Positions 2,558 through 28,000 are shown, counted from the first letter of the stretch. The stretch: DNA of 64,000 nucleotides from Eledone cirrhosa (GCA_964016885.1 OZ024740.1:251906001-251970000); one strand, 5' to 3'. The notes: generated by a model from the letters alone, not told the origin. Program-made: numbers and translations.

Positions 2558-5500
2558 CCCTGATTTTTTTTTACAAATTATCTCCCCCTGATTTTTTTTT
2601 ACAAATTATCTCCCCCTGATTTTTTTTTTTACAAATTATCTCCGCCTGATTTAAAAAAAAAAATTATCTCCCCTTGGACGGCTGGAAATTATCTCCCCTT
2701 GGACGGCTGGAAATTATCTCCCCTTGGACGGCTAGAAATTACCTCTCCTTGGACGGCTGAAAATTATCTCCCATTGGACGGCTGCAAATTATCTCCCCTT
2801 GATTTTTTTTACAAATTATCTCCCCCTGATTTTTTTTACAAATTATCTCCCCCTGATTTTTTTTTACAAATTATCTCCCCCTGATTTTTTTTTACAAATT
2901 ATCTCCCCCTGATTTTTTTTACAAATTATCTCCCCCTGATTTTTTTTACAAATTATCTCCCCCTGATTTTTTTTTACAAATTATCTCCCCTTGATTTTTT
3001 TTACAAATTATCTCCCCCTGATTTTTTTTTTACAAATTATCTCCCCCTGATTTTTTTACAAATTATCTCCCCCTGATTTTTTTTACAAATTATCTCCCCC
3101 TGATTTTTTTTACAAATTATCTCCCCTTGATTTTTTTTTACAAATTATCTCCCCCTGATTTTTTTTTTACAAATTATCTCCCCCTGATTTTTTTTAAAAT
3201 TATCTTCCCTTGGCTGGCGGGAAATTATCTCCCCTTGGACGGCTGGAAATTATCTCCCCTTGGAAGGATGTAAATTATCTCCCCTTGGACGGCTGGAAAT
3301 TATCTCCCCTTGCACGGCTGGAAATTATCTCCCCTTGATTTTTTTTACAAATTATCTCCCCCTGATTTTTTTTTACAAATTATCTCCCCCTGATTTTTTT
3401 TTACAAATTATCTCCCCCTGATTTTTTTTACAAATTATCTCCCCCTGATTTAAAAAAAAAAAATTATCTCCTCTTCGCTGGCTGGAAATTATCTCCCCTT
3501 GGACGCTGGAAATTATAGCCCCTTGGAGGGCTGGAAATTATCTTCCCTTGGACGGCTGGAAATTATCTTCCCTTGGACGGCTGGAAATTATCTCCCCTTG
3601 ATTTTTTTTACAAATTATCTCCCCCTGATTTTTTTTTACAAATTATCTCCCCCTGATTTTTTTTTACAAATTATCTCCCCCTGATTTTTTTTTTACAAAT
3701 TATCTCCGCTTGATTTTTAAAAAAAAATTATCTCCCCTTGGACGGCTGGAAATTATCTCCCCTTGGACGGCTGGAAATTATCTCCCCTTGGACGGCTAGA
3801 AATTATCTCTCCTTGGACGGCTGAAAATTATCTCCCCTTGGACGGCTGCAAATTATCTCCCCTTGATTTATTTTACAAATTATCTCCCCCTGATTTTTTT
3901 TTACAAATTATCTCCCCCTCATTTTTTTTACAAATTATCTACCCCTGATTTTTTTTACAAATTATCTCCCCCTGATTTTGTTTTACAAATTATCTCCCTC
4001 TGATTTTTTTTTACAAATTATCTCCCCCTGATTTTTTTTTTACAAATTATCTCCCCCTGATTTTTTTAAAAATTATCTCCCCCTGATTTTTTTACAATCT
4101 CCGCCTGATTTTTTTAAAAATTATCTTGCCTTGGCTGGCGGGAAATTATCTTCCCTTGGACGGCTGGAAATTATCTCCCCTTGGAAGGATGGAAATTATC
4201 TCCCCTTGGACGGCTGGAAATTATCTCCCCTTGCACGGCTGGAAATTATCTCCCCTTGGCTGGAAATTATCTCCCCTTGGACGGCTAGAAATTATCTCTC
4301 TTTGGACGGCTGGAAATTATGTCCCTTTGATTTTTTTTATAAATTATCTACCTCTGATATTTTTTACAAATCTCCCCCTGATTTTTTAAAAAAAATTATC
4401 TCCCCTTCGCTGGCTGGAAATTATCTCCCCTTGGACACTGGAAATTATAGCCCCTTGGAGGGCTGGAAATTATCTTCCCTTGGACGGCTGGAAATTATCT
4501 CCCCTTGATTTTTTTTACAAATTATCTCCGCCTGATTTTTTTTAAAAATTATCTCTCCTTGGACGGCTGGAAATTATCTCCCCTTGATTTTTTTTACAAA
4601 TTATCTCCCCCTGATTTTTTTTTACAAATTATCTCCCCCTAATTTTTTTTTACAAATTATCTACCCCTGATTTTTTTTACAAATTATCTCCCCCTGATTT
4701 TTTTTACAAATTATCTCCCCCTGATTTTTCTTTTACAAATTATCTCCCCCTGATTTTTTTACAAATTATCTCCCCCTGATTTTTTTTACAAATTATCTCC
4801 GCCTGATTTTTTTAAATATTATCTTCCCTTGGCTGGCGGGAAATTATCTCCCCTTGGACGGCTGGAAATTATCTGCCCTTGATTTTGTTTTTACAAATTA
4901 TCTTCCACTGATTTTTTTTACAAATTATCTCCACCTGATTTTTTAAAAAAATTATCTCCCCTTGGAAGGTTGGAAATTATCTCCCCTTGGACGGCTAGAA
5001 ATTATCTCTCTTTGGACGGCTGGAAATTATCTCCCCTTGATTTTTTTTACAAATTATCTCCCCCTGATTTTTTTTACAAATATCCCAGTGATTTTTTTTA
5101 AAAAATTATCTCCCCTTCGCTGGCTGGAAATTATCTCCCCTTGGACGCTGGAAATTATAGCCCCTTGGAGGGCTGGAAATTATCTTCCCTTGGACGGCTG
5201 GAAATTATCTCCCCTTGATTTTTTTTACAAATTATCTCCCCCTGATTTTTTTTTCAAATTGTCTCCCCCTGATTTTTTTTTACAAATTATCTCCCCCTGA
5301 TTTTTTTTTACAACTTATCTCCGCCTGATTTTTTTTAAAAAATCATCTCCCCTTGGACGGCTGGAAATTATCTCCCCTTGGACGGCTGGAAATTATCTCT
5401 CCTTGGACGGCTAGAAATTACCTCTCCTTGGACAATTGAAAATTATCTCCCCTTGGACGGCTGGAAATTATCTCCCCTTGATTTATTTTACAAATTATCT

Positions 5501-8500
5501 CCCCCTGATTTTTTTTACAAATTATCTCCCCTGATTTTTTTTTACAAATTATCTCCCCCTGATTTTTTTTTACAAATTATCTCCCCCTGATTTTTTTTAC
5601 AAATTATCTCCCCCTGATTTTTTTACAAATTATCTCCCCTTGGCTGGCTGGAAATTATCTCCCCTTGGAGGCAGGAATTTATCTCCCCTTGGACGGGTAG
5701 AAATTACCTCTCCTTGGACGGCTGGAAAATATGTCTCCTTGGACGGCTGGAAATTATCTCCCCTTGGACGGCTGGAAATTATCTCCCCTTGGACGGCTGG
5801 AAATTATCTCCCCTTGGACGGCTAGAAATTACTTCTCCTTGGACGGCTGAAAATTATCTCCCCTTGGACGGCTGGAAATTATCTCCCCTTGATTTTTTTA
5901 CAAATTATCTCCCCCTGATTTTTTTTACAAATTATCTCCCCCTGATTTTTTTTACAAATTATCTCCCCCTGATTTTTTTTACAAATTATCTCCCCCTGAT
6001 TTTTTTTACAAATTATCTCCGCCTGATTTTTTTAAATATTATCTCTCCTTGGCTGGCGGGAAATTATCTCCCCTTGGACGGCTGCAAATTATCTCCGCTT
6101 GATTTTTTTTACAAATTATCTCCCCCTGATTTTTTTTTAAAAATTATCTCCCCCTGATTTTTTTTACAAATTATCTCCCCTGATTTTTTTTTACAAATTA
6201 TCTCCCCCTGATTTTTTTTTACAAATTATCTCCCCCTGATTTTTTTTTTACAAATTATCTCCCCCTGATTTTTTTACAAATTATCTCCCCCTGATTTTTT
6301 TTACAATCTCCGCCTGATTTTTTTAAAAATTATCTTCCCTTGGCTGGCGGGAAATTATCTCCCCTTGGACGGCTGGAAATTATCTCCCCTTGGAAGGATG
6401 GAAATTATCTCCCCTTGGACGGCTGGAAATTATCTCCCCTTGCACGGCTGGAAATTATCTCCCCTTGGCTGGAAATTATCTCCCCTTGGACGGCTAGAAA
6501 TTATCTCTCTTTGGATGGCTGGAAATTATCTCCCTTTGATTTTTTTTACAAATTATCTCCCTCTGATTTTTTTTACAAATCTCCCCCTGATTTTTTTTTA
6601 CAAATTATCTCCCCCTGATTTTTTTTACAAACTATCTCCCCCTGATTTTTTTACAAATTATCTCCCCTTGGCTGGCTGGAAATTATCTCCCCTTGGAGGC
6701 TGGAATTTATCTCCCCTTGGACGGCTAGAAATTACCTCTCCTTGGACGGCTGGAAAATATGTCTCCTTGGACGGCTGGAAATTATCTCCCCTTGGACGGC
6801 TGGAAATTACCTCTCCTTGGACGGCTGAAAATTATCTCCCCTTGGACGGCTGGAAATTATCTCCCCTTGATTTTTTTACAAATTATCTCCCCCTGATTTT
6901 TTTTTTACAAATTATCTCCCCCTGATTTTTTTTACAAATTATCTACGCCTGATTTTTTTAAATATTATCTCTCCTTGGCTGGCGGGAAATTATCTCCCCT
7001 TGGACGGCTGGAAATTATCTCCCCTTGGAAGGATGGAAATTATCTCCCCTTGGACGGCTGGAAATTATCTCCCCTTGCACTGCTGGAAATTATCTCCCCT
7101 TGGACGGCTGGAAATTATCTGCCCTTGATTTTGTTTTTACAAATTATCTTCCCCTGATTATTTTTACAAATTATCTCCACCTGATTTTTTAAAAAATTAT
7201 CTCCCCTTGGACGGCTGGAAATTATCTCCCCTTGGCTGGAAATTATCTCCCCTTGGACGGCTAGAAATTATCTCTCTTTGGACGGCTGGAAATTATCTCC
7301 CCTTGATTTTTTTTACAAATTATCTCCCCCTGATTTTTTTTACAAATTATCCCCCCATGATTTAAAAAAAAAAAATTATCTCCCCTTCGCTGGCTGGAAA
7401 TTATCTCCCCTTGGACGCTGGAAATTATAGCCCCTTGGAGGGCTGGAAATTATCTTCCCTTGGACGGCTGGAAATTATCTCCCCTTGATTTTTTTTACAA
7501 ATTATCTCCCCCTGATTTTTTTTTACAAATTATCTCCCCCTGATTTTTTTTTTACAAATTATCTCCGCCTGATTTTTTTAAAAAAATTATCTCCCCTTGG
7601 ACGGCTGGAAATTATCTCCCCTTGGACGGCTGGAAATTATCTCCCGTTGGACGGCTAGAAATTACCTCTCCTTGGACGGCTGAAAATTATCTCCCCTTGG
7701 ACGGCTGCAAATTATCTCCCCTTGATTTTTTTTACAAATTATCCCCCCATGATTTTTAAAAAAAAAATTATCTCCCCTTCGCTGGCTGGAAATTATCTCC
7801 CCTTGGACGCTGGAAATTATAGCCCCTTGGAGGGCTGGAAATTATCTTCCCTTGGACGGCTGGAAATTATCTCCCCTTGATTTTTTTTACAAATTATCTC
7901 CCTCTGATTTTTTTTTACAAATTATCTCCCACTGATTTTTTTTTACAAATTATCTCCCCCTGATTTTTTTTTTACAAATTATCTCCGCGTGATTTTTTTA
8001 AAAAAATTATCTCCCCTTGGACGGCTGGAAATTATCTCCCCTTGGACGGCTGGAAATTATCTCGCCTTGGACGGCTAGAAATTACCTCTCCTTGGACGGC
8101 TGAAAATTATCTCCCCTTGGACGGCTGCAAATTATCTCCCCTTGATTTTTTTTACAAATTATCTCCCCCTGATTTTTTTTACAAATTATCTCCCCCTGAT
8201 TTTTTTTACAAATTATCTCCCCCTGATTTTTTTTTACAAATTATCTCCCCCTGATTTTTTTTCCAAATTATCTCCCCCTGATTTTTTTTACAAATTATCT
8301 CCCCCTGATTTTTTTTACAAATTATCTCCCCCTGATTTTTTTTACAATCTCCGCCTGATTTTTTAAAAAATTATCTTCCCTTGGCTGGCGGGAAATTATC
8401 TCCCCTTGGACGGCTAGAAATTATCTCTCTTTGGACGGCTGGAAATTATCTCCCCTTGATTTTTTTTACAAATTATCTCCCCCTGATTTTTTTTACAAAT

Positions 8501-11500
8501 TATCCCCGCATGATTTTTAAAAAAAAATTATCTCCCCTTCGCTGGCTGGAAATTATCTCCCCTTGGACGCTGGAAATTATAGCCCCTTGGAGGGCTGGAA
8601 ATTATCTTCCCTTGGACGGCTGGAAATTATCTCCCCTTAATTTTTTTTACAAATTATCTCCCCCTGATTTTTTTTTACAAATTATCTCCCCCTGATTTTT
8701 TTTTACAAATTATCTCCCCCTGATTTTTTTTTTTACAAATTATCTCCGCCTGATTTTTAAAAAAAAATTATCTCCCCTTGGACGGCTGGAAATTATCTCC
8801 CCTTGGACGGCTGGAAATTATCTCCCCTTGGACGGCTAGAAATTACCTCTCCTTGGACGGCTGAAAATTATCTCCCCTTGGACGGCTGCAAATTATCTCC
8901 CCTTGATTTTTTTTACAAATTATCTCCCCCTGATTTTTTTTACAAATTATCTCCCCCTGATTTTTTTTACAAATTATCTCCCCCTGATTTTTTTTTACAA
9001 ATTATCTCCCCCTGATTTTTTTTTACAAATTATCTCCCCCTGATTTTTTTTACAAATTATCTCCCCCTGATTTTTTTTACAAATTATCTCCCCCTGATTT
9101 TTTTTTACAAATTATCTCCCCTTGATTTTTTTTTACAAATTATCTGCCCCTGATTTTTTTTTTACAAATTATCTCCCCCTGATTTTTTTACAAATTATCT
9201 CCCCCTGATTTTTTTTACAAATTATCTCCCGCTGATTTTTTTTACAAATTATCTCCCCTTGATTTTTTTTTACAAATTATCTCCCCTTGATTTTTTTTTA
9301 CAAATTATCTCCCCCTGATTTTTTTTTTACAAATTATCTCCCCCTGATTTTTTTAAAAATTATCTTCCCTTGGCTGGCGGGAAATTATCTCCCCTTGGAC
9401 GGCTGGAAATTATCTCCCCTTGGAAGGATGTAAATTATCTCCCCTTGGACGGCTGGAAATTATCTCCCCTTGCACGGCTGGAAATTATCTCCCCTTGATT
9501 TTTTTTAGAAATTATCTCCCCCTGATTTTTTTTTACAAATTATCTCCCCCTGATTTTTTTTTACAAATTATCTCCCCCTGATTTTTTTTACAAATTATCT
9601 CCCCCTGATTTTTAAAAAAAAAATTATCTCCCCTTCGCTGGCTGGAAATTATCTCCCCTTGGACGCTGGAAATTATAGCCCCTTGGAGGGCTGGAAATTA
9701 TCTTCCCTTGGACGGCTGGAAATTATCTTCCCTTGGACGGCTGGAAATTATCTCCCCTTGATTTTTTTTACAAATTATCTCCCCCTGATTTTTTTTTACA
9801 AATTATCTCCCCCTGATTTTTTTTAAAAATTATCTACCCCTGATTTTTTTTACAAATTATCTCCCCCTGATTTTTTTTTACAAATTATCTCCCCTTGATT
9901 TTTTTTTACAAATTATCTCCCCCTGATTTTTTTTTTACAAATTATCTCCCCCTGATTTTTTTACAAATTATCTCCCCCTGATTTTTTTTACAATCTCCGC
10001 CTGATTTTTTAAAAAATTATCTTCCCTTGGCTGGCGGGAAATTATCTCCCCTTGGACGGCTGGAAATTATCTCCCCTTGGACGGCTAGAAATTATCTCTC
10101 TTTGGACGGCTGGAAATTATCTCCCCTTGATTTTTTTTACAAATTATCTCCCCCTGATTTTTTTTACAAATTATCCCCGCATGATTTTTAAAAAAAAAAT
10201 TATCTCCCCTTCGCTGGCTGGAAATTATCTCCCCTTGGACGCTGGAAATTATAGCCCCTTGGAGGGCTGGAAATTATCTCCCCTTGGACGGCTGGAAATT
10301 ATCTCCCCTTGCACTGCTGGAAATTATCTCCCCTTGGACGGCTGGAAATTATCTGCCCTTGATTTTGTTTTTACAAATTATCTTCCCCTGATTATTTTTA
10401 CAAATTATCTCCACCTGATTTTTTAAAAAATTATCTCCCCTTGGACGGCTGGAAATTATCTCCCCTTGGCTGGAAATTATCTCCCCTTGGACGGCTAGAA
10501 ATTATCTCTCTTTGGACGGCTGGAAATTATCTCCCCTTGATTTTTTTTACAAATTATCTCCCCCTGATTTTTTTTACAAATTATCCCCCCATGATTTTTA
10601 AAAAAAAAATTATCTCCCCTTCGCTGGCTGGAAATTATCTCCCCTTGGACGCTGGAAATTATAGCCCCTTGGAGGGCTGGAAATTATCTTCCCTTGGACG
10701 GCTGGAAATTATCTCCCCTTGATTTTTTTTACAAATTATCTCCCCCTGATTTTTTTTTACAAATTATCTCCCCCTGATTTTTTTTTTACAAATTATCTCC
10801 GCCTGATTTTTTTAAAAAAATTATCTCCCCTTGGACGGCTGGAAATTATCTCCCCTTGGACGGCTGGAAATTATCTCCCGTTGGACGGCTAGAAATTACC
10901 TCTCCTTGGACGGCTGAAAATTATCTCCCCTTGGACGGCTGCAAATTATCTCCCCTTGATTTTTTTTACAAATTATCCCCCCATGATTTTTAAAAAAAAA
11001 ATTATCTCCCCTTCGCTGGCTGGAAATTATCTCCCCTTGGACGCTGGAAATTATAGCCCCTTGGAGGGCTGGAAATTATCTTCCCTTGGACGGCTGGAAA
11101 TTATCTCCCCTTGATTTTTTTTACAAATTATCTCCCTCTGATTTTTTTTTACAAATTATCTCCCACTGATTTTTTTTTACAAATTATCTCCCCCTGATTT
11201 TTTTTTTACAAATTATCTCCGCGTGATTTTTTTAAAAAAATTATCTCCCCTTGGACGGCTGGAAATTATCTCCCCTTGGACGGCTGGAAATTATCTCGCC
11301 TTGGACGGCTAGAAATTACCTCTCCTTGGACGGCTGAAAATTATCTCCCCTTGGACGGCTGCAAATTATCTCCCCTTGATTTTTTTTACAAATTATCTCC
11401 CCCTGATTTTTTTTACAAATTATCTCCCCCTGATTTTTTTTACAAATTATCTCCCCCTGATTTTTTTTTACAAATTATCTCCCCCTGATTTTTTTTCCAA

Positions 11501-12602
11501 ATTATCTCCCCCTGATTTTTTTTACAAATTATCTCCCCCTGATTTTTTTTACAAATTATCTCCCCCTGATTTTTTTTACAATCTCCGCCTGATTTTTTAA
11601 AAAATTATCTTCCCTTGGCTGGCGGGAAATTATCTCCCCTTGGACGGCTGGAAATTATCTCCCCTTGGACGGCTAGAAATTATCTCTCTTTGGACGGCTG
11701 GAAATTATCTCCCCTTGATTTTTTTTACAAATTATCTCCCCCTGATTTTTTTTACAAATTATCCCCGCATGATTTTTAAAAAAAAATTATCTCCCCTTCG
11801 CTGGCTGGAAATTATCTCCCCTTGGACGCTGGAAATTATAGCCCCTTGGAGGGCTGGAAATTATCTTCCCTTGGACGGCTGGAAATTATCTCCCCTTAAT
11901 TTTTTTTACAAATTATCTCCCCCTGATTTTTTTTTACAAATTATCTCCCCCTGATTTTTTTTTACAAATTATCTCCCCCTGATTTTTTTTTTTACAAATT
12001 ATCTCCGCCTGATTTTTAAAAAAAAATTATCTCCCCTTGGACGGCTGGAAATTATCTCCCCTTGGACGGCTGGAAATTATCTCCCCTTGGACGGCTAGAA
12101 ATTACCTCTCCTTGGACGGCTGAAAATTATCTCCCCTTGGACGGCTGCAAATTATCTCCCCTTGATTTTTTTTACAAATTATCTCCCCCTGATTTTTTTT
12201 ACAAATTATCTCCCCCTGATTTTTTTTACAAATTATCTCCCCCTGATTTTTTTTTACAAATTATCTCCCCCTGATTTTTTTTTACAAATTATCTCCCCCT
12301 GATTTTTTTTACAAATTATCTCCCCCTGATTTTTTTTACAAATTATCTCCCCCTGATTTTTTTTTACAAATTATCTACCCTTGATTTTTTTTTACAAATT
12401 ATCTGCCCCTGATTTTTTTTTTACAAATTATCTCCCCCTGATTTTTTTACAAATTATCTCCCCCTGATTTTTTTTACAAATTATCTCCCGCTGATTTTTT
12501 TTACAAATTATCTCCCCTTGATTTTTTTTTACAAATTATCTCCCCTTGATTTTTTTTTACAAATTATCTCCCCCTGATTTTTTTTTTACAAATTATCTCC
12601 CC
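2404..12602 (+). repeat. ~10.2-kb segment duplicated at ~17079-27277 (offset 14673-14675)
   Basis: About 15 pseudo-ORF pairs share this offset (3499/18172 through 12062/26737). Shared rare variants include CTCCCATTGG, CTCCTCTTCG, CTTGCCTTGG, GAAGGTTGG and ACGGGTAG. Confidence 0.92.
7040..12602 (+). repeat. Near-tandem ~3.25-kb higher-order unit (offset 3234, then 3259 after one extra A monomer); second copy cut by the island
   Basis: GCACTGCTGG at 7077/10311; pseudo-ORFs 8042/11276 (3234) and 8803/12062 (3259). Confidence 0.82.
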
Positions 12603-12752
12603 TTGGCCGGCTGGAAATTATCTCCTCTTGGCCGGCTGGATATTATCTCCCCTTGGCTGCTGGATATTATCTCCCCTTGGCCAGCTGGAAATTATCTCCA
12701 CTTGGCCGGCTGCAAATTATCTCCTTTTGGCCAGCTGGAAATTATCTCCCCT

Positions 12753-13044
12753 AAATTAAATTAAATTAAATCAAATTAATTAAATTAATTAATTAATTGA
12801 TTATATTTTTTTTATTTTATTTATTTTAATTTTTTTTTTAATTACGTTATTAATTAATTAATTAATTATGTAAATTGATTTTATTTTAATTTAATGTAAT
12901 TTAATTTAATTTAATTTACTTTAATTCAATTTAATTTAATTTTATTTAATTTTATTTTATTTTATTTAAAAAACAAAACGAAACCGGGGCACCTAAAAAA
13001 ACAAACGAAAAGAAACCGGGGAACCTAAAAAATCGAACGAAATG
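12753..13044. repeat. AT-rich spacer, copy 1 (292 bp): (AAATT)n/(AATT)n/(AATTT)n low-complexity tract followed by A-rich direct repeats
   Basis: About 9 G/C bases in 12753-12970. It is clearly homologous to 13634-13937. Confidence 0.93.
12968..13044 (+). repeat. About 2.5 copies of a ~32-bp degenerate direct repeat (A6-7 CAAA..GAAACCGGGGNACCT)
   Basis: GAAACCGGGG occurs at 12980 and 13012, followed by CACCT or AACCT and then an A-run. A third partial copy is AAAAAATCGAACGAAATG. The same structure is at 13861-13937. Confidence 0.85.
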
Positions 13045-13633
13045 AAATTATCTCCCCTTGGCTTGCTGGAAATTATCTCAACTCGACCGGCTGGATACTA
13101 TCTCCCCTTGGCCGGCTGGAAATTATCTCCCCTTAGCCGGCTGGAAATTATCTCCCATTGGCCGGCTGGATATTATCTCCCCTTGGCCGGCTGGATGTTA
13201 TCTCCCCTTGGCCAGCTAGAAATTATCTCCACTTGGCCGGCTGGAAATTATCTTCTCTTGGCCGGCTGGAAATTATCTCCCTTTGGCCGGCTGCATATTA
13301 TCTCCCCTTGGCCGGCTGGATATGATCTCCCCTTGGCCGGCTGGAAATTATCTCCCCTTGGCAGGTTGGAAATTATCTCCCCTTGGCCGGCTGGAAATTA
13401 TCTCCCCTTGGCCGGCTGGAAATAATCTCCCCTTGGCCGGCCGGAAATTATCTTCCTTTGGCCGGCTGGATATTATCTCCGCTTGGCCGGCTGGAAATTA
13501 TCTCCCCTTGGCCAGCTGGATATTATCTCCCCTCGGCCGGCTGGAAATTATCTCCCCTTGGCCGGCTGGAATTTATCTCCCCTTGGCCGGCTGGAATTTA
13601 TATCCCCTTGCCCGGCTCGAAAATATCTCCCCT
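13045..13633 (+). repeat. Pure type C array: 23 monomers of exactly 25 bp plus a terminal partial core
   Basis: 13045 + 23x25 = 13620, where the last core (AAAATATCTCCCCT) begins, so there is no net indel. Most monomers carry 1-3 substitutions. Confidence 0.93.
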
Positions 13634-13937
13634 AATTAAAATTAAATTAAATTAAATTAAATCAAATAAATTAAATTAATTAATTAATTAATTATATTTT
13701 TTTTATTTTATTTATTTTTATTTTTTTTTATTAATTACGTTATTAATTAATTAATTAATTATGTAAATTGATTTCATTTCAATTTAATGTAATTTAATTT
13801 AATTTAATTTACTTTAATTCAATTCAATTTAATTTAATTTAATTTAATTTAATTTTATTTAAAAAACGAAACGAAACCGGGGTACCTAAAAAAACAAACG
13901 AAAAGAAACCGGGGAACCTAAAAAATCGAACGAAATG
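13634..13937. repeat. AT-rich spacer, copy 2 (304 bp)
   Basis: It has the same landmarks as copy 1 (ATCAAA, AATTACGTTATT, ATGTAAATTGATTT, TTTACTTTAATTC, GAAACCGGGG x2), with microsatellite length changes and several substitutions (e.g. GGCACC vs GGTACC). Confidence 0.93.
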
Positions 13938-16900
13938 AAATTATCTCCCCTTGGCTTGCTGGAAATTATCTCAACTCGACCGGCTGGATACTATCTCCCC
14001 TTGGCCGGCTGGAAATTATCTCCCCTTAGCCGGCTGGAAATTATCTCCCCTTGGACGGCTGGAAATTATCTCCCCTTGATTTTTTTTACAAATTATCTCC
14101 CCCTGATTTTTTTTTACAAATTATCTCCCCCTGATTTTTTTTTACAACTTATCTCCGCCTGATTTTTTTAAAAAAATCATCTCCCCTTGGACGGCTGGAA
14201 ATTATCTCCCCTGGGACGGCTGGAAATTATCTCTCCTTGGACGGCTAGAAATTACCTCTCCTTGGACAATTGAAAATTATCTCCCCTTGGACGGCTGGAA
14301 ATTATCTCCCCTTGATTTTTTTTACAAATTATCTCCCCCTGATTTTTTTTACAAATTATCTCCCCTGATTTTTTTTTACAAATTATCTCCCCCTGATTTT
14401 TTTTTACAAATTATCTCCCCCTGATTTTTTTTACAAATTATCTCCCCCTGATTTTTTTACAAATTATCTCCCCTTGGCTGGCTGGAAATTATCTCCCCTT
14501 GGAGGCAGGAATTTATCTCCCCTTGGACGGCTAGAAATTACCTCTCCTTGGACGGCTGGAAAATATGGTTCCTTGGACGGCTGGAAATTATCTCCCCTTG
14601 GACGGCTGGAAATTATCTCCCCTTGGACGGCTGGAAATTATCTCCCCTTGGACGGCTAGAAATGACCTCTCCTTGGCTGGCGGGAAATTATCTCCCCTTG
14701 GACGGCTGCAAATTATCTCCGCTTGATTTTTTTTACAAATTATCTCCCCCTGATTTTTTTTTACAAATTATCTCCCCCTGATTTTTTTTACAAATTATCT
14801 CCCCTGATTTTTTTTTACAAATTATCTCCCCCTGATTTTTTTTTACAAATTATCTCCCCCTGATTTTTTTTTTACAAATTATCTCCCCCTGATTTTTTTA
14901 CAAATTATCTCCCCCTGATTTTTTTTACAATCTCCGCCTGATTTTTTTAAAAATTATCTTCCCTTGGCTGGCGGGAAATTATCTCCCCTTGGACGGCTGG
15001 AAATTATCTCCCCTTGGAAGGATGGAAATTATCTCCCCTTGGACGGCTGGAAATTATCTCCCCTTGCACGGCTGGAAATTATCTCCCCTTGGCTGGAAAT
15101 TATCTCCCCTTGGACGGCTAGAAATTATCTCTCTTTGGATGGCTGGAAATTATCTCCCTTTGATTTTTTTTACAAATTATCTCCCTCTGATTTTTTTTAC
15201 AAATCTCCCCCTGATTTTTTTTTACAAATTATCTCCCCCTGATTTTTTTTACAAACTATCTCCCCCTGATTTTTTTACAAATTATCTCCCCTTGGCTGGC
15301 TGGAAATTATCTCCCCTTGGAGGCTGGAATTTATCTCCCCTTGGACGGCTAGAAATTACCTCTCCTTGGACGGCTGGAAAATATGTCTCCTTGGACGGCT
15401 GGAAATTATCTCCCCTTGGACGGCTGGAAATTACCTCTCCTTGGACGGCTGAAAATTATCTCCCCTTGGACGGCTGGAAATTATCTCCCCTTGATTTTTT
15501 TACAAATTATCTCCCCCTGATTTTTTTTTTACAAATTATCTCCCCCTGATTTTTTTTTACAAATTATCTACGCCTGATTTTTTTAAATATTATCTCTCCT
15601 TGGCTGGCGGGAAATTATCTCCCCTTGGAAGGATGGAAATTATCTCCCCTTGGACGGCTGGAAATTATCTCCCCTTGCACTGCTGGAAATTATCTCCCCT
15701 TGGACGGCTGGAAATTATCTGCCCTTGATTTTGTTTTTACAAATTATCTTCCCCTGATTATTTTTACAAATTATCTCCACCTGATTTTTTAAAAAATTAT
15801 CTCCCCTTGGACGGCTGGAAATTATCTCCCCTTGGCTGGAAATTATCTCCCCTTGGACGGCTAGAAATTATCTCTCTTTGGACGGCTGGAAATTATCTCC
15901 CCTTGATTTTTTTTACAAATTATCTCCCCCTGATTTTTTTTACAAATTATCCCCCCATGATTTTTTAAAAAAAAATTATCTCCCCTTCGCTGGCTGGAAA
16001 TTATCTCCCCTTGGACGCTGGAAATTATAGCCCCTTGGAGGGCTGGAAATTATCTTCCCTTGGACGGCTGGAAATTATCTCCCCTTGATTTTTTTTACAA
16101 ATTATCTCCCCCTGATTTTTTTTTACAAATTATCTCCCCCTAATTTTTTTAAAAAAATTATCTCCCCTTGGACGGCTGGAAATTATCTCCCCTTGGACGG
16201 CTGGAAATTATCTCCCCTTGGACGGCTAGAAATTACCTCTCCTTGGACGGCTGAAAATTATCTCCCCTTGGACGGCTGCAAATTATCTCCCCTTGATTTT
16301 TTTTACAAATTATCCCCCCATGATTTTTAAAAAAAAAATTATCTCCCCTTCGCTGGCTGGAAATTATCTCCCCTTGGACGCTGGAAATTATAGCCCCTTG
16401 GAGGGCTGGAAATTATCTTCCCTTCGACGGCTGGAAATTATCTCCCCTTGATTTTTTTTACAAATTATCTCCCCCTGATTTTTTTTTACAAATTATCTCC
16501 CACTGATTTTTTTTTACAAATTATCTCCCCCTGATTTTTTTTTTACAAATTATCTCCGCCTGATTTTTTAAAAAAAATTATCTCCCCTTGGACGGCTGGA
16601 AATTATCTCCCCTTGGACGGCTGGAAATTATCTCCCCTTGGACGGCTAGAAATTACCTCTCCTTGGACGGCTGAAAATTATCTCCCCTTGGACGGCTGCA
16701 AATTATCTCCCCTTGATTTTTTTTACAAATTATCTCCCCCTGATTTTTTTTACAAATTATCTCCCCCTGATTTTTTTTACAAATTATCTCCCCCTGATTT
16801 TTTTTTACAAATTATCTCCCCCTGATTTTTTTTTACAAATTATCTCCCCCTGATTTTTTTTACAAATTATCTCCCCCTGATTTTTTTTACAATCTCCGCC

Positions 16901-19900
16901 TGATTTTTTAAAAAATTATCTCCCCTTGGACGGCTGGAAATTATCTCCCCTTGGACGGCTGGAAATTATCTCCCCTTGGACGGCTAGAAATTATCTCTCT
17001 TTGGACGGCTGGAAATTATCTCCCCTTGATTTTTTTTACAAATTATCTCCCCCTGATTTTTTTTACAAATTATCCCCGCATGATTTTTAAAAAAAAAATT
17101 ATCTCCCCTTCGCTGGCTGGAAATTATCTCCCCTTGGACGCTGGAAATTATAGCCCCTTGGAGGGCTGGAAATTATCTTCCCTTGGACGGCTGGAAATTA
17201 TCTCCCCTTGATTTTTTTTACAAATTATCTCCCCCTGATTTTTTTTACAAATTATCTCCCCCTGATTTTTTTTTACAAATTATCTCCCCCTGATTTTTTT
17301 TTTTACAAATTATCTCCGCCTGATTTTAAAAAAAAAATTATCTCCCCTTGGACGGCTGGAAATTATCTCCCCTTGGACGGCTGGAAATTATCTCCCCTTG
17401 GACGGCTAGAAATTACCTCTCCTTGGACGGCTGAAAATTATCTCCCATTGGACGGCTGCAAATTATCTCCCCTTGATTTTTTTTACAAATTATCTCCCCC
17501 TGATTTTTTTTACAAATTATCTCCCCCTGATTTTTTTTTACAAATTATCTCCCCCTGATTTTTTTTTACAAATTATCTCCCCCTGATTTTTTTTACAAAT
17601 TATCTCCCCCTGATTTTTTTTACAAATTATCTCCCCCTGATTTTTTTTTACAAATTATCTCCCCTTGATTTTTTTTACAAATTATCTCCCCCTGATTTTT
17701 TTTTTACAAATTATCTCCCCCTGATTTTTTTACAAATTATCTCCCCCTGATTTTTTTTACAAATTATCTCCCCCTGATTTTTTTTACAAATTATCTCCCC
17801 TTGATTTTTTTTTACAAATTATCTCCCCCTGATTTTTTTTTACAAATTATCTCCCCCTGATTTTTTTTAAAATTATCTTCCCTTGGCTGGCGGGAAATTA
17901 TCTCCCCTTGGACGGCTGGAAATTATCTCCCCTTGGAAGGATGTAAATTATCTCCCCTTGGACGGCTGGAAATTATCTCCCCTTGCACGGCTGGAAATTA
18001 TCTCCCCTTGATTTTTTTTACAAATTATCTCCCCCTGATTTTTTTTTACAAATTATCTCCCCCTGATTTTTTTTTACAAATTATCTCCCCCTGATTTTTT
18101 TTACAAATTATCTCCCCCTGATTTAAAAAAAAAAAATTATCTCCTCTTCGCTGGCTGGAAATTATCTCCCCTTGGACGCTGGAAATTATAGCCCCTTGGA
18201 GGGCTGGAAATTATCTTCCCTTGGACGGCTGGAAATTATCTTCCCTTGGACGGCTGGAAATTATCTCCCCTTGATTTTTTTTACAAATTATCTCCCCCTG
18301 ATTTTTTTTTACAAATTATCTCCCCCTGATTTTTTTTTACAAATTATCTCCCCCTGATTTTTTTTTTACAAATTATCTCCGCTTGATTTTTAAAAAAAAA
18401 TTATCTCCCCTTGGACGGCTGGAAATTATCTCCCCTTGGACGGCTGGAAATTATCTCCCCTTGGACGGCTAGAAATTATCTCTCCTTGGACGGCTGAAAA
18501 TTATCTCCCCTTGGACGGCTGCAAATTATCTCCCCTTGATTTATTTTACAAATTATCTCCCCCTGATTTTTTTTTACAAATTATCTCCCCCTCATTTTTT
18601 TTACAAATTATCTACCCCTGATTTTTTTTACAAATTATCTCCCCCTGATTTTGTTTTACAAATTATCTCCCTCTGATTTTTTTTTACAAATTATCTCCCC
18701 CTGATTTTTTTTTTACAAATTATCTCCCCCTGATTTTTTTAAAAATTATCTCCCCCTGATTTTTTTACAATCTCCGCCTGATTTTTTTAAAAATTATCTT
18801 GCCTTGGCTGGCGGGAAATTATCTCCCCTTGGACGGCTGGAAATTATCTCCCCTTGGAAGGATGGAAATTATCTCCCCTTGGACGGCTGGAAATTATCTC
18901 CCCTTGCACGGCTGGAAATTATCTCCCCTTGGCTGGAAATTATCTCCCCTTGGACGGCTAGAAATTATCTCTCTTTGGACGGCTGGAAATTATGTCCCTT
19001 TGATTTTTTTTATAAATTATCTACCTCTGATATTTTTTACAAATCTCCCCCTGATTTTTTAAAAAAAATTATCTCCCCTTCGCTGGCTGGAAATTATCTC
19101 CCCTTGGACACTGGAAATTATAGCCCCTTGGAGGGCTGGAAATTATCTTCCCTTGGACGGCTGGAAATTATCTCCCCTTGATTTTTTTTACAAATTATCT
19201 CCGCCTGATTTTTTTTAAAAATTATCTCTCCTTGGACGGCTGGAAATTATCTCCCCTTGATTTTTTTTACAAATTATCTCCCCCTGATTTTTTTTTACAA
19301 ATTATCTCCCCCTAATTTTTTTTTACAAATTATCTACCCCTGATTTTTTTTACAAATTATCTCCCACTGATTTTTTTTACAAATTATCTCCCCCTGATTT
19401 TTCTTTTACAAATTATCTCCCCCTGATTTTTTTACAAATTATCTCCCCCTGATTTTTTTTACAAATTATCTCCGCCTGATTTTTTTAAATATTATCTTCC
19501 CTTGGCTGGCGGGAAATTATCTCCCCTTGGACGGCTGGAAATTATCTGCCCTTGATTTTGTTTTTACAAATTATCTTCCACTGATTTTTTTTACAAATTA
19601 TCTCCACCTGATTTTTTAAAAAAATTATCTCCCCTTGGAAGGTTGGAAATTATCTCCCCTTGGACGGCTAGAAATTATCTCTCTTTGGACGGCTGGAAAT
19701 TATCTCCCCTTGATTTTTTTTACAAATTATCTCCCCCTGATTTTTTTTACAAATATCCCAGTGATTTTTTTTAAAAAATTATCTCCCCTTCGCTGGCTGG
19801 AAATTATCTCCCCTTGGACGCTGGAAATTATAGCCCCTTGGAGGGCTGGAAATTATCTTCCCTTGGACGGCTGGAAATTATCTCCCCTTGATTTTTTTTA

Positions 19901-22052
19901 CAAATTATCTCCCCCTGATTTTTTTTTTCAAATTGTCTCCCCCTGATTTTTTTTTACAAATTATCTCCCCCTGATTTTTTTTTACAACTTATCTCCGCCT
20001 GATTTTTTTTAAAAAATCATCTCCCCTTGGACGGCTGGAAATTATCTCCCCTTGGACGGCTGGAAATTATCTCTCCTTGGACGGCTAGAAATTACCTCTC
20101 CTTGGACAATTGAAAATTATCTCCCCTTGGACGGCTGGAAATTATCTCCCCTTGATTTATTTTACAAATTATCTCCCCCTGATTTTTTTTACAAATTATC
20201 TCCCCTGATTTTTTTTTACAAATTATCTCCCCCTGATTTTTTTTTACAAATTATCTCCCCCTGATTTTTTTTACAAATTATCTCCCCCTGATTTTTTTAC
20301 AAATTATCTCCCCTTGGCTGGCTGGAAATTATCTCCCCTTGGAGGCAGGAATTTATCTCCCCTTGGACGGGTAGAAATTACCTCTCCTTGGACGGCTGGA
20401 AAATATGTCTCCTTGGACGGCTGGAAATTATCTCCCCTTGGACGGCTGGAAATTATCTCCCCTTGGACGGCTGGAAATTATCTCCCCTTGGACGGCTAGA
20501 AATTACTTCTCCTTGGACGGCTGAAAATTATCTCCCCTTGGACGGCTGGAAATTATCTCCCCTTGATTTTTTTACAAATTATCTCCCCCTGATTTTTTTT
20601 TACAAATTATCTCCCCCTGATTTTTTTTACAAATTATCTCCCCCTGATTTTTTTTACAAATTATCTCCCCCTGATTTTTTTTACAAATTATCTCCGCCTG
20701 ATTTTTTTAAATATTATCTCTCCTTGGCTGGCGGGAAATTATCTCCCCTTGGACGGCTGCAAATTATCTCCGCTTGATTTTTTTTACAAATTATCTCCCC
20801 CTGATTTTTTTTTAAAAATTATCTCCCCCTGATTTTTTTTACAAATTATCTCCCCTGATTTTTTTTTACAAATTATCTCCCCCTGATTTTTTTTTACAAA
20901 TTATCTCCCCCTGATTTTTTTTTTACAAATTATCTCCCCCTGATTTTTTTACAAATTATCTCCCCCTGATTTTTTTTACAATCTCCGCCTGATTTTTTTA
21001 AAAATTATCTTCCCTTGGCTGGCGGGAAATTATCTCCCCTTGGACGGCTGGAAATTATCTCCCCTTGGAAGGATGGAAATTATCTCCCCTTGGACGGCTG
21101 GAAATTATCTCCCCTTGCACGGCTGGAAATTATCTCCCCTTGGCTGGAAATTATCTCCCCTTGGACGGCTAGAAATTATCTCTCTTTGGATGGCTGGAAA
21201 TTATCTCCCTTTGATTTTTTTTACAAATTATCTCCCTCTGATTTTTTTTACAAATCTCCCCCTGATTTTTTTTTACAAATTATCTCCCCCTGATTTTTTT
21301 TACAAACTATCTCCCCCTGATTTTTTTACAAATTATCTCCCCTTGGCTGGCTGGAAATTATCTCCCCTTGGAGGCTGGAATTTATCTCCCCTTGGACGGC
21401 TAGAAATTACCTCTCCTTGGACGGCTGGAAAATATGTCTCCTTGGACGGCTGGAAATTATCTCCCCTTGGACGGCTGGAAATTACCTCTCCTTGGACGGC
21501 TGAAAATTATCTCCCCTTGGACGGCTGGAAATTATCTCCCCTTGATTTTTTTACAAATTATCTCCCCCTGATTTTTTTTTTACAAATTATCTCCCCCTGA
21601 TTTTTTTTACAAATTATCTACGCCTGATTTTTTTAAATATTATCTCTCCTTGGCTGGCGGGAAATTATCTCCCCTTGGACGGCTGGAAATTATCTCCCCT
21701 TGGAAGGATGGAAATTATCTCCCCTTGGACGGCTGGAAATTATCTCCCCTTGCACTGCTGGAAATTATCTCCCCTTGGACGGCTGGAAATTATCTGCCCT
21801 TGATTTTGTTTTTACAAATTATCTTCCCCTGATTATTTTTACAAATTATCTCCACCTGATTTTTTAAAAAATTATCTCCCCTTGGACGGCTGGAAATTAT
21901 CTCCCCTTGGCTGGAAATTATCTCCCCTTGGACGGCTAGAAATTATCTCTCTTTGGACGGCTGGAAATTATCTCCCCTTGATTTTTTTTACAAATTATCT
22001 CCCCCTGATTTTTTTTACAAATTATCCCCCCATGATTTTTAAAAAAAAAATG

Positions 22053-25000
22053 ATCTCCCCTTCGCTGGCTGGAAATTATCTCCCCTTGGACGCTGGAAAT
22101 TATAGCCCCTTGGAGGGCTGGAAATTATCTTCCCTTGGACGGCTGGAAATTATCTCCCCTTGATTTTTTTTACAAATTATCTCCCCCTGATTTTTTTTTA
22201 CAAATTATCTCCCCCTGATTTTTTTTTTACAAATTATCTCCGCCTGATTTTTTTAAAAAAATTATCTCCCCTTGGACGGCTGGAAATTATCTCCCCTTGG
22301 ACGGCTGGAAATTATCTCCCGTTGGACGGCTAGAAATTACCTCTCCTTGGACGGCTGAAAATTATCTCCCCTTGGACGGCTGCAAATTATCTCCCCTTGA
22401 TTTTTTTTACAAATTATCCCCCCATGATTTTTAAAAAAAAAATTATCTCCCCTTCGCTGGCTGGAAATTATCTCCCCTTGGACGCTGGAAATTATAGCCC
22501 CTTGGAGGGCTGGAAATTATCTTCCCTTGGACGGCTGGAAATTATCTCCCCTTGATTTTTTTTACAAATTATCTCCCTCTGATTTTTCTTTACAAATTAT
22601 CTCCCACTGATTTTTTTTTACAAATTATCTCCCCCTGATTTTTTTTTTACAAATTATCTCCGCGTGATTTTTTTAAAAAAATTATCTCCCCTTGGACGGC
22701 TGGAAATTATCTCCCCTTGGACGGCTGGAAATTATCTCGCCTTGGACGGCTAGAAATTACCTCTCCTTGGACGGCTGAAAATTATCTCCCCTTGGACGGC
22801 TGCAAATTATCTCCCCTTGATTTTTTTTACAAATTATCTCCCCCTGATTTTTTTTACAAATTATCTCCCCCTGATTTTTTTTACAAATTATCTCCCCCTG
22901 ATTTTTTTTTACAAATTATCTCCCCCTGATTTTTTTTCCAAATTATCTCCCCCTGATTTTTTTTACAAATTATCTCCCCCTGATTTTTTTTACAAATTAT
23001 CTCCCCCTGATTTTTTTTACAATCTCCGCCTGATTTTTTAAAAAATTATCTTCCCTTGGCTGGCGGGAAATTATCTCCCCTTGGACGGCTAGAAATTATC
23101 TCTCTTTGGACGGCTGGAAATTATCTCCCCTTGATTTTTTTTACAAATTATCTCCCCCTGATTTTTTTTACAAATTATCCCCGCATGATTTTTAAAAAAA
23201 AATTATCTCCCCTTCGCTGGCTGGAAATTATCTCCCCTTGGACGCTGGAAATTATAGCCCCTTGGAGGGCTGGAAATTATCTTCCCTTGGACGGCTGGAA
23301 ATTATCTCCCCTTAATTTTTTTTACAAATTATCTCCCCCTGATTTTTTTTTACAAATTATCTCCCCCTGATTTTTTTTTACAAATTATCTCCCCCTGATT
23401 TTTTTTTTTACAAATTATCTCCGCCTGATTTTTAAAAAAAAATTATCTCCCCTTGGACGGCTGGAAATTATCTCCCCTTGGACGGCTGGAAATTATCTCC
23501 CCTTGGACGGCTAGAAATTACCTCTCCTTGGACGGCTGAAAATTATCTCCCCTTGGACGGCTGCAAATTATCTCCCCTTGATTTTTTTTACAAATTATCT
23601 CCCCCTGATTTTTTTTACAAATTATCTCCCCCTGATTTTTTTTACAAATTATCTCCCCCTGATTTTTTTTTACAAATTATCTCCCCCTGATTTTTTTTTA
23701 CAAATTATCTCCCCCTGATTTTTTTTACAAATTATCTCCCCCTGATTTTTTTTACAAATTATCTCCCCCTGATTTTTTTTTACAAATTATCTCCCCTTGA
23801 TTTTTTTTTACAAATTATCTGCCCCTGATTTTTTTTTTACAAATTATCTCCCCCTGATTTTTTTACAAATTATCTCCCCCTGATTTTTTTTACAAATTAT
23901 CTCCCGCTGATTTTTTTTACAAATTATCTCCCCTTGATTTTTTTTTACAAATTATCTCCCCTTGATTTTTTTTTACAAATTATCTCCCCCTGATTTTTTT
24001 TTTACAAATTATCTCCCCCTGATTTTTTTAAAAATTATCTTCCCTTGGCTGGCGGGAAATTATCTCCCCTTGGACGGCTGGAAATTATCTCCCCTTGGAA
24101 GGATGTAAATTATCTCCCCTTGGACGGCTGGAAATTATCTCCCCTTGCACGGCTGGAAATTATCTCCCCTTGATTTTTTTTAGAAATTATCTCCCCCTGA
24201 TTTTTTTTTACAAATTATCTCCCCCTGATTTTTTTTTACAAATTATCTCCCCCTGATTTTTTTTACAAATTATCTCCCCCTGATTTTTAAAAAAAAAATT
24301 ATCTCCCCTTCGCTGGCTGGAAATTATCTCCCCTTGGACGCTGGAAATTATAGCCCCTTGGAGGGCTGGAAATTATCTTCCCTTGGACGGCTGGAAATTA
24401 TCTTCCCTTGGACGGCTGGAAATTATCTCCCCTTGATTTTTTTTACAAATTATCTCCCCCTGATTTTTTTTTACAAATTATCTCCCCCTGATTTTTTTTA
24501 AAAATTATCTACCCCTGATTTTTTTTACAAATTATCTCCCCCTGATTTTTTTTTACAAATTATCTCCCTCTGATTTTTTTTTACAAATTATCTCCCCCTG
24601 ATTTTTTTTTTACAAATTATCTCCCCCTGATTTTTTTACAAATTATCTCCCCCTGATTTTTTTTACAATCTCCGCCTGATTTTTTAAAAAATTATCTTCC
24701 CTTGGCTGGCGGGAAATTATCTCCCCTTGGACGGCTGGAAATTATCTCCCCTTGGACGGCTAGAAATTATCTCTCTTTGGACGGCTGGAAATTATCTCCC
24801 CTTGATTTTTTTTACAAATTATCTCCCCCTGATTTTTTTTACAAATTATCCCCGCATGATTTTTAAAAAAAAAATTATCTCCCCTTCGCTGGCTGGAAAT
24901 TATCTCCCCTTGGACGCTGGAAATTATAGCCCCTTGGAGGGCTGGAAATGATCTCCCCTTGGACGGCTGGAAATTATCTCCCCTTGCACTGCTGGAAATT

Positions 25001-28000
25001 ATCTCCCCTTGGACGGCTGTAAATTATCTGCCCTTAATTTTGTTTTTACAAATTATCTTCCCCTGATTATTTTTACAAATTATCTCCACCTGATTTTTTA
25101 AAAAATTATCTCCCCTTGGACGGCTGGAAATTATCTCCCCTTGGCTGGAAATTATCTCCCCTTGGACGGCTAGAAATTATCTCTCTTTGGACGGCTGGAA
25201 ATTATCTCCCCTTGATTTTTTTTACAAATTATCTCCCCCTGATTTTTTTTACAAATTATCCCCCCATGATTTTTAAAAAAAAAATTATCTCCCCTTCGCT
25301 GGCTGGAAATTATCTCCCCTTGGACGCTGGAAATTATAGCCCCTTGGAGGGCTGGAAATTATCTTCCCTTGGACGGCTGGAAATTATCTCCCCTTGATTT
25401 TTTTTACAAATTATCTCCCCCTGATTTTTTTTTACAAATTATCTCCCCCTGATTTTTTTTTTACAAATTATCTCCGCCTGATTTTTTTAAAAAAATTATC
25501 TCCCCTTGGACGGCTGGAAATTATCTCCCCTTGGACGGCTGGAAATTATCTCCCGTTGGACGGCTAGAAATTACCTCTCCTTGGACGGCTGAAAATTATC
25601 TCCCCTTGGACGGCTGCAAATTATCTCCCCTTGATTTTTTTTACAAATTATCCCCCCATGATTTTTAAAAAAAAAATTATCTCCCCTTCGCTGGCTGGAA
25701 ATTATCTCCCCTTGGACGCTGGAAATTATAGCCCCTTGGAGGGCTGGAAATTATCTTCCCTTGGACGGCTGGAAATTATCTCCCCTTGATTTTTTTTACA
25801 AATTATCTCCCTCTGATTTTTTTTTACAAATTATCTCCCACTGATTTTTTTTTACAAATTATCTCCCCCTGATTTTTTTTTTACAAATTATCTCCGCGTG
25901 ATTTTTTTAAAAAAATTATCTCCCCTTGGACGGCTGGAAATTATCTCCCCTTGGACGGCTGGAAATTATCTCGCCTTGGACGGCTAGAAATTACCTCTCC
26001 TTGGACGGCTGAAAATTATCTCCCCTTGGACGGCTGCAAATTATCTCCCCTTGATTTTTTTTACAAATTATCTCCCCCTGATTTTTTTTACAAATTATCT
26101 CCCCCTGATTTTTTTTACAAATTATCTCCCCCTGATTTTTTTTTACAAATTATCTCCCCCTGATTTTTTTTCCAAATTATCTCCCCCTGATTTTTTTTAC
26201 AAATTATCTCCCCCTGATTTTTTTTACAAATTATCTCCCCCTGATTTTTTTTACAATCTCCGCCTGATTTTTTAAAAAATTATCTTCCCTTGGCTGGCGG
26301 GAAATTATCTCCCCTTGGACGGCTGGAAATTATCTCCCCTTGGACGGCTAGAAATTATCTCTCTTTGGACGGCTGGAAATTATCTCCCCTTGATTTTTTT
26401 TACAAATTATCTCCCCCTGATTTTTTTTACAAATTATCCCCGCATGATTTTTAAAAAAAAATTATCTCCCCTTCGCTGGCTGGAAATTATCTCCCCTTGG
26501 ACGCTGGAAATTATAGCCCCTTGGAGGGCTGGAAATTATCTTCCCTTGGACGGCTGGAAATTATCTCCCCTTAATTTTTTTTACAAATTATCTCCCCCTG
26601 ATTTTTTTTTACAAATTATCTCCCCCTGATTTTTTTTTACAAATTATCTCCCCCTGATTTTTTTTTTTACAAATTATCTCCGCCTGATTTTTAAAAAAAA
26701 ATTATCTCCCCTTGGACGGCTGGAAATTATCTCCCCTTGGACGGCTGGAAATTATCTCCCCTTGGACGGCTAGAAATTACCTCTCCTTGGACGGCTGAAA
26801 ATTATCTCCCCTTGGACGGCTGCAAATTATCTCCCCTTGATTTTTTTTACAAATTATCTCCCCCTGATTTTTTTTACAAATTATCTCCCCCTGATTTTTT
26901 TTACAAATTATCTCCCCCTGATTTTTTTTTACAAATTATCTCCCCCTGATTTTTTTTTACAAATTATCTCCCCCTGATTTTTTTTACAAATTATCTCCCC
27001 CTGATTTTTTTTACAAATTATCTCCCCCTGATTTTTTTTTACAAATTATCTCCCCTTGATTTTTTTTTACAAATTATCTGCCCCTGATTTTTTTTTTACA
27101 AATTATCTCCCCCTGATTTTTTTACAAATTATCTCCCCCTGATTTTTTTTACAAATTATCTCCCGCTGATTTTTTTTACAAATTATCTCCCCTTGATTTT
27201 TTTTTACAAATTATCTCCCCTTGATTTTTTTTTACAAATTATCTCCCCCTGATTTTTTTTTTACAAATTATCTCCCCCTGATTTTTTTAAAAATTATCTT
27301 CCCTTGGCTGGCGGGAAATTATCTCCCCTTGGACGGCTGGAAATTATCTCCCCTTGGAAGGATGTAAATTATCTCCCCTTGGACGGCTGGAAATTATCTC
27401 CCCTTGCACGGCTGGAAATTATCTCCCCTTGATTTTTTTAGAAATTATCTCCCCCTGATTTTTTTTTACAAATTATCTCCCCCTGATTTTTTTTTACAAA
27501 TTATCTCCCCCTGATTTTTTTTACAAATTATCTCCCCCTGATTTTTAAAAAAAAAATTATCTCCCCTTCGCTGGCTGGAAATTATCTCCCCTTGGACGCT
27601 GGAAATTATAGCCCCTTGGAGGGCTGGAAATTATCTTCCCTTGGACGGCTGGAAATTATCTTCCCTTGGACGGCTGGAAATTATCTCCCCTTGATTTTTT
27701 TTACAAATTATCTCCCCCTGATTTTTTTTTACAAATTATCTCCCCCTGATTTTTTTTACAAATTATCTACCCCTGATTTTTTTTACAAATTATCTCCCCC
27801 TGATTTTTTTTTACAAATTATCTCCCTCTGATTTTTTTTTACAAATTATCTCCCCCTGATTTTTTTTTTACAAATTATCTCCCCCTGATTTTTTTACAAA
27901 TTATCTCCCCCTGATTTTTTTTACAATCTCCGCCTGATTTTTTAAAAAATTATCTTCCCTTGGCTGGCGGGAAATTATCTCCCCTTGGACGGCTGGAAAT

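What the first reader, a model, noticed from the sequence alone, without database searches (positions are those of the whole stretch)
12590..14037. Foreign sister-satellite island spliced into the array through the shared 13-17 bp core
Seen: a 1448-bp block with its own monomer (GGCCGG instead of GGACGG), its own ~893-bp period and a spacer found nowhere else in the window. Both junctions fall inside the common AAATTATCTCCCC core, in register, with no distinguishable target-site duplication or terminal inverted repeats. The duplicate copy of the left flank (offset 14675) continues uninterrupted at 27265, giving an in-window empty site. The right flank resumes at a different higher-order position (matching ~5200 onward). 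Inference: this was an ectopic template switch, gene conversion or eccDNA integration from a separate array of the same family, using the core as microhomology, and not transposition.
Basis: partly seen in the sequence, partly recalled or inferred. Interest (0 to 1): 0.8.

Follow-up and report, generated by a model that had tools for sequence, protein, structure and literature searches.

The report
Satellite island made by local duplication
The 1.4-kb patch of a sister repeat inside this megabase satellite array is a near-exact copy of an older patch 27.7 kb upstream in the same array, likely left by an ordinary in-register tandem duplication rather than imported from another locus.

Summary
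The block is real as described: GGCCGG-type (C) monomers plus two AT-rich spacers at 12590-14037, in register with the A/B array. It is not foreign. In the 664 kb fetched, the array (at least 1.01 Mb) holds six same-strand C/spacer blocks, 212 kb in all. Past its first 7 bases the island differs by one substitution from the tail of a 2.2-kb island (I1) 27,682 bp upstream and from the end of a 43-kb block (B1). Its right junction and the next 10.5 kb are shared with I1 (5 substitutions), so only the left junction is new. That junction has 6 bp of exact homology, not 13-17. Best model: a recent in-register tandem duplication with one breakpoint inside I1. The island is the head of the 14,675-bp second copy, and the 'empty site' at 27265 is the original continuation. 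I1 probably arose from B1 the same way. The outside arrays examined match at only about 80-91%. A read test found no junction-spanning piece in one sample, so misassembly is not excluded. This is a known mechanism in an apparently undescribed satellite family; low interest.

The parts
12597..14049 (+).
   Evidence: 1 substitution (12975) plus the chimeric first monomer versus offsets -27,682 and -105,915
12597..12602 (+). New left breakpoint: 6-bp exact overlap inside an in-register, 10/13-identical core
   Evidence: 13 of 13 A/B parent occurrences stop matching at 12602; 4 of 4 C parent occurrences start matching at 12597
14048..14049 (+). Inherited right junction, shared with I1; equals the B1 right junction minus 335 bp; 2-bp exact overlap in monomers that differ at 3 of 25 bases
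   Evidence: 120-base junction string occurs at I1 and I2 only; monomer lists
12753..13044 (+). AT-rich spacer 1, ending in a 32-bp subrepeat; carries the island's private substitution at 12975
13634..13937 (+). AT-rich spacer 2
   Evidence: spacer plus 4 monomers differs from the first by 11 substitutions and 12 gap bases
12597..27271 (+). Second copy (U2, 14,675 bp) of the inferred tandem duplication, headed by the island
   Evidence: 12603-23140 matches the I1 copy with 5 substitutions and 3 one-base indels; tail matches offset -14,675
27265..27290 (+).
2405..12596 (+). Tail of the first copy (U1), homologous to about 17080-27271; start approximate
   Evidence: 13 substitutions over about 10.2 kb from 17327 on
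1..64000 (+). Host A/B satellite (25-bp A and 26-29-bp B monomers sharing a 13-bp core) with irregular kilobase-scale duplications

Best explanation
The island is likely the head of a recent in-register tandem duplication inside one satellite array, in which a repair or replication strand likely switched from a B monomer back to a C monomer within the older island I1 upstream and re-copied I1's last 1.45 kb plus the A/B sequence after it. Shown by sequence: the copy relationships, the shared right junction, the single new left junction with 6 bp of exact homology, and the lengths (27,682 = 14,675 + 4,428 + 8,579, the last two being internal duplications of the first copy). Inferred: the order B1 (43 kb) to I1 (2.2 kb) to I2 (1.45 kb), each step an unequal sister exchange or break-induced-replication switch that clipped the C block shorter, plus a 335-bp deletion across the right junction on the way to I1. 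Unequal exchange, BIR and in-place reintegration of a circle give the same product and cannot be told apart here. Whether the original unit was 14.7 or 23.3 kb is unresolved.
For: Six same-strand C blocks totalling 212,491 bp lie in the 664 kb fetched. All 96 exact spacer-motif hits in the 3.0-Gb assembly lie there. The island is 1 substitution from I1 and B1, 4-6 substitutions from the next copies in blocks B4 and B6, and about 80-91% identical to the five outside loci examined. The right junction string occurs at I1 and I2 only, and the left junction is single-copy in the region. U2's head matches U1's head over 10,540 columns with 5 substitutions. Eight sites group the I1/I2 flank with the B1 flank against two pure A/B copies, and one site conflicts. 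The 76-kb stretch from B1 to I1 has homologues running broadly in order through the 132-kb stretch from I1 to B4, and I1's left flank matches the flanks of B1, B4, B5 and B6. All 8 distinct A/B-C boundary types seen keep register. In Arabidopsis mutation-accumulation lines all 56 large centromeric indels kept periodicity, insertions were tandem duplications, and many breakpoints made chimeric units (10.1101/2025.06.02.657473, passages).
Against: No read support for the new junction. None of the 24 listed exact pieces (301 more not shown) from three contig sets of one sample and one RAD run spans both 12589 and 12608. At 97% the bridging pieces each had one mismatch. That sample holds only 40-47% of the sampled words, may be another individual, and the tool warns that a hole proves nothing. 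U1 and U2 are not a clean pair: they differ by 13 kb, and the tail copies differ more (13 substitutions in about 10 kb) than the head copies (5 in 10.5 kb). I1's C part is closer to B1 (2 substitutions plus a 10-base spacer-length difference in 2.2 kb) than its flank is to B1's flank (14 sites in 4.8 kb), which leaves room for later conversion. I1's left junction has an extra monomer and needs two switches.
Confidence: 0.8

Rival explanations
1. A two-switch conversion or BIR tract: a pre-formed C/A-B hybrid (I1's tail plus at least 10.5 kb of flank) was copied 27.7 kb downstream and rejoined in homologous A/B sequence, skipping part of the first copy. It is local, but a complex rather than simple duplication.
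For: U2 lacks 13 kb that U1 has. One site (17327) groups U2 with U1's first internal copy against the third, suggesting the 8,579-bp repeat is older than U2. Hybrid-repeat hitchhiking is proposed for Rsp-like/1.688 (PMC7403614, passages).
Against: The 4,428-bp repeat has 0 differences in 4,241 columns and its two copies share a variant absent from U2, so at least that part of the length difference postdates the split. A simple duplication needs fewer events.
Confidence: 0.1
2. Assembly artefact: the left junction comes from a chimeric read or a false duplication, and the 14.7-kb copy does not exist in the organism.
For: The junction is single-copy in the region, lies in a megabase satellite, and no junction-specific exact piece was listed in the public runs tested.
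Against: U2 carries four private substitutions (12975, 19366, 22052, 22588) and U1 one, as diverged real copies would. Overlap assemblers join on long overlaps, not 6 bp (established knowledge, not tested here). The junction has the in-register form of the seven other boundary types.
Confidence: 0.07
3. One reading: ectopic template switch, conversion or circle integration from a separate C array, making both junctions at once.
For: C arrays do exist elsewhere: C1 231.58 Mb, C3 165.86-165.87 and 179.47 Mb, C21 17.7 Mb, C25 17.48 Mb. 168 of 760 exact C monomers lie outside the fetched region and were not all located.
Against: The best outside match to the whole island is 82.4% and to the spacer 79-85%, against one substitution for local copies. 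The right junction pre-exists at I1. None of the 96 exact spacer-motif hits lies outside this array.
Confidence: 0.02
4. A non-autonomous transposon with internal tandem repeats inserted here.
For: Short dispersed C clusters exist, two ending at the start of the spacer.
Against: No terminal inverted repeat. The block ends differ between blocks. The flanks of the dispersed clusters look unrelated by eye. The three ORFs are translated repeats.
Confidence: 0.01

Closest known systems
Period-preserving tandem and complex tandem duplications in Arabidopsis CEN178 arrays (bioRxiv 10.1101/2025.06.02.657473; passages read)
   Same: In-register insertions copied from nearby sequence, with chimeric units at many breakpoints.
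   Different: There the insertions are 1-31 units (mean 1.9 kb) within one monomer family. Here the unit is 14.7 kb or more (about 550 monomers), the breakpoint joins two subfamilies, and centromere status is untested.
[quoted passage not shown]
   Same: A rarer satellite sits in a commoner one, junctions show short microhomology (4-7 bp there, 2-6 bp here), and one junction is reused between clusters.
   Different: Those satellites are unrelated and spread between distant loci. Here A and C differ by one consensus base and the source is in the same array.
Box 1/Box 2 junctions between Meloidogyne satellite families (PMC3694981; passages read)
   Same: Switches between related satellites fall in a shared conserved box of similar length.
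   Different: That work describes monomer-size replacement and proposes cut-and-paste or illegitimate recombination. Here a long segment is duplicated and the exact homology is much shorter than the core.
Tribolium castaneum Cast2' mixed repeat (PMC11610590; passages read)
   Same: Satellite monomers plus a captured spacer form a longer repeat unit, as C monomers plus spacer do here.
   Different: Unit about 1270 bp there and 363-1495 bp, variable, here. No sequence comparison was made.

Membership tests
Intra-array in-register tandem duplication | Source copy lies in the same array, same strand | tested here: met
   Offsets -27,682 and -105,915, + strand, 1 substitution
Intra-array in-register tandem duplication | Only one new junction; the other end runs into the original continuation | tested here: met
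   Right junction shared with I1, left single-copy; continuation at 27265
Intra-array in-register tandem duplication | Monomer period kept, chimeric monomer at breakpoint | tested here: met
Intra-array in-register tandem duplication | Two adjacent copies of equal length | tested here: inconclusive
   27,682 vs 14,675 bp; difference equals two internal duplications of 4,428 and 8,579 bp
Intra-array in-register tandem duplication | Junction present in raw reads | tested here: inconclusive
   No spanning exact piece among 24 listed; sample may be another individual
Ectopic satellite insertion (Rsp-like/1.688 type) | Donor at a separate locus is the closest relative | tested here: not met
   Outside loci about 80-91%; not every outside monomer was located
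Ectopic satellite insertion (Rsp-like/1.688 type) | Left and right flanks are the two halves of one target site | tested here: not met
   Left flank continues at 27265; right flank is I1's flank
Ectopic satellite insertion (Rsp-like/1.688 type) | Short microhomology at junctions | tested here: met
   6 bp and 2 bp exact
DNA transposon / MITE | Terminal inverted repeats and fixed ends | tested here: not met
Centromeric satellite | CENH3/CENP-A occupancy | not testable with these tools
   No chromatin data

The most novel reading that the evidence does not exclude
The nested series 43 kb to 2.2 kb to 1.45 kb is a natural marker record showing that repair between diverged sister monomers can resolve on only 2-6 exact bases while still keeping monomer register. 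It would also show that a mixed A/B-C satellite repeatedly rebuilds its own boundaries in this genome (8 distinct boundary types on three contigs), making it a tractable place to separate unequal exchange from break-induced replication across individuals.
Probability: 0.3. Interest if true: 0.3.

Novelty: new member of a known kind. Interest (0 to 1): 0.14.

Why it matters
A foreign array spliced in at both ends would have been direct evidence for long-range satellite exchange. It is instead a clear local example of how kilobase-scale in-register duplications intersperse two subfamilies in one array. It also warns that a window-limited 'empty site' and two apparent junctions can be produced by one breakpoint. 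The satellite's core motifs were not found in the paper library (three motifs, 0 papers), so the family may be undescribed; that search cannot see sequences held only in figures or supplements.

Tried and rejected
Rfam at gathering threshold over 12400-14300: 0 matches. ORFs of 60 aa or more: 3, all translated monomer repeats, rejected as genes.

Earlier scan findings: none by place or by sequence.

Three contig sets of one sample (shares 0.40-0.47) and two RAD runs were laid on the left junction. The only exact pieces reaching back into the B tail stop at 12607 and fit a B monomer followed by a GGCT-type monomer. The private base at 12975 was not tested in reads (cap reached).

A breakpoint survey found 62 candidate rearrangement points in about 600 kb, median exact overlap 27.5 bp. 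It works in monomer units, so it cannot test register; it shows only that breakpoints are common. The output was cut and only its visible rows were seen.

Paper searches. Passages were read in PMC7403614, PMC3694981, 10.1101/2025.06.02.657473, PMC11610590 and PMC13011684; the rest were seen as listings only, and no supplements were read. The array between 251.20 and 251.61 Mb was only sampled (11 stretches of 2 kb). The organism was not determined.

Full report
Observation. The whole window is one satellite built on a 13-bp core, with 25-bp A monomers and 26-29-bp T-tailed B monomers. At 12590-14037 these are replaced by 25-bp C monomers and two AT-rich spacers. GGCCGG occurs 21 times, all inside; GGACGG occurs 631 times, none inside. 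A and C consensus monomers differ at one base.

Context outside the window. The window is G000:C1:251906001-251970000. I fetched 664 kb around it. The array runs from about 251.19 Mb, next to a run of N, to 252.207 Mb, at least 1.01 Mb. C/spacer sequence forms six blocks on the same strand: B1 43,452 bp, I1 2,232 bp, the island I2 1,448 bp, B4 36,241 bp, B5 23,996 bp and B6 105,122 bp at the array's right end. They hold 281 spacer-bearing units spaced 363-1495 bp apart, so 893 bp is one spacing among many. A 46-base spacer-end motif has 96 exact hits in the assembly, all within these blocks. B1, B4, B5 and B6 share one left junction type, and B4 and B5 share a right junction, so C blocks have been duplicated with their flanks repeatedly.

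Source of the island. Apart from its first monomer, the island differs from I1's tail (offset -27,682) and B1's end (offset -105,915) by one substitution, at 12975. The next copies, in B4 and B6, differ by 4-6 substitutions. The exact C monomer has 760 hits genome-wide, 592 of them in the fetched region. I examined five outside loci. The best matches the whole island at 82.4% and the spacer at 79-85%, and monomer-only stretches reach about 90-94% over 250-600 bp. The other outside monomers were not all located.

Junctions. The 120-base right-junction string occurs at I1 and I2 only, and the match between them runs 10,540 columns with 5 substitutions and 3 one-base indels. This junction equals B1's right junction with 335 bp removed. 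Eight sites group the I1/I2 flank with B1's flank against two pure A/B copies, and one conflicts. The left junction is single-copy. All 13 A/B parent occurrences stop matching at 12602 and all 4 C parent occurrences start at 12597, because the donor monomer has a variant core: 6 bp exact. The right junction has 2 bp exact. Random in-register A/B-C monomer pairs share a median longest exact run of 10-11 bp, so these breakpoints did not seek out perfect cores; register was kept regardless. All 8 distinct boundary types seen, six here and one each on C3 and C21, have normal-length monomers at the join.

Mechanism. One new junction plus a long shared downstream segment is the signature of a tandem duplication (inference). 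The first copy is 27,682 bp and contains internal duplications of 4,428 and 8,579 bp, which account exactly for the difference. The 4,428-bp pair has 0 differences in 4,241 columns and shares a variant absent from the second copy, so it is younger than the split. The age of the 8,579-bp pair is unresolved, and one site suggests it is older. The same logic applies one step earlier: I1's C part matches B1's end, its left flank matches the flanks of B1, B4, B5 and B6, and the B1-I1 interval has homologues broadly in order through the I1-B4 interval. Unequal sister exchange, break-induced replication and in-place circle reintegration would all give this product.

Results against. The public runs gave no junction-specific exact piece: none of 24 listed, 301 not shown. 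The sample may not be the assembled individual, so this neither confirms nor refutes. The tail copies are more diverged than the head copies, I1's C part is closer to B1 than its flank is, and I1's left junction is complex. Against misassembly, the second copy has four private substitutions and the first has one.

Comparison with known systems. The event works like the period-preserving tandem duplications reported in Arabidopsis CEN178 arrays (10.1101/2025.06.02.657473, passages), at larger scale. Unequal crossover and BIR are both discussed as sources of such patterns in maize arrays (PMC13011684, passages). Junction reuse and short microhomology resemble Rsp-like/1.688 (PMC7403614, passages), but the separate-donor feature was tested and not met. 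Switching at a shared box resembles Meloidogyne Box 1 (PMC3694981, passages). The family's core motifs returned no papers.

Verdict. This is ordinary intra-array turnover in a possibly undescribed satellite family. Interest 0.14.

Noticed in passing
L093-L095 (G000:C3:165.863-165.885 Mb, minus strand): A second mixed array: A/B followed by about 10 kb of C/spacer at its end, the same order as the main array, with a different in-register junction and 79-85% spacer identity.
   Followed up: partly
L097 (G000:C21:17.711-17.717 Mb, minus strand): A third mixed locus with C monomers and one spacer first, then A/B.
   Followed up: partly
L098 (G000:C25, about 17.4776-17.479 Mb): An inversion within the family: C monomers on the minus strand abut shorter, about 21-bp variants on the plus strand.
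   Followed up: no
L096 (G000:C3, about 179.4735-179.4742 Mb): A short C cluster preceded by a half spacer and an array of about 20-bp units resembling the spacer's 32-bp subrepeat; a possible origin of the spacer as a captured neighbouring repeat.
   Followed up: no
L091-L092 (G000:C1, about 231.5798-231.5805 Mb, minus strand): An isolated cluster of about 0.7 kb of C monomers in non-satellite DNA, ending at the first bases of the spacer.
   Followed up: partly
window 21787-34865: A 6,082-6,085-bp near-identical duplication (98% by BLAST) overlapping the end of U2, giving a second equivalent continuation site near 33347.
   Followed up: partly
G000:C1:252,024,414-252,101,849: Blocks B4, B5 and B6 begin 44.8 and 32.6 kb apart with the same left junction type, i.e. 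large duplications across the A/B-C boundary.
   Followed up: partly
L100-L107 (G000:C1:251.11-251.19 Mb): About 80 kb at 16-22% GC left of the array; the part read near 251.191 Mb is AT-dinucleotide-rich simple sequence.
   Followed up: no
L054:6970-8700: Directly after the array's right end, a roughly 490-bp sequence is repeated in tandem, followed by further short duplicated segments.
   Followed up: no
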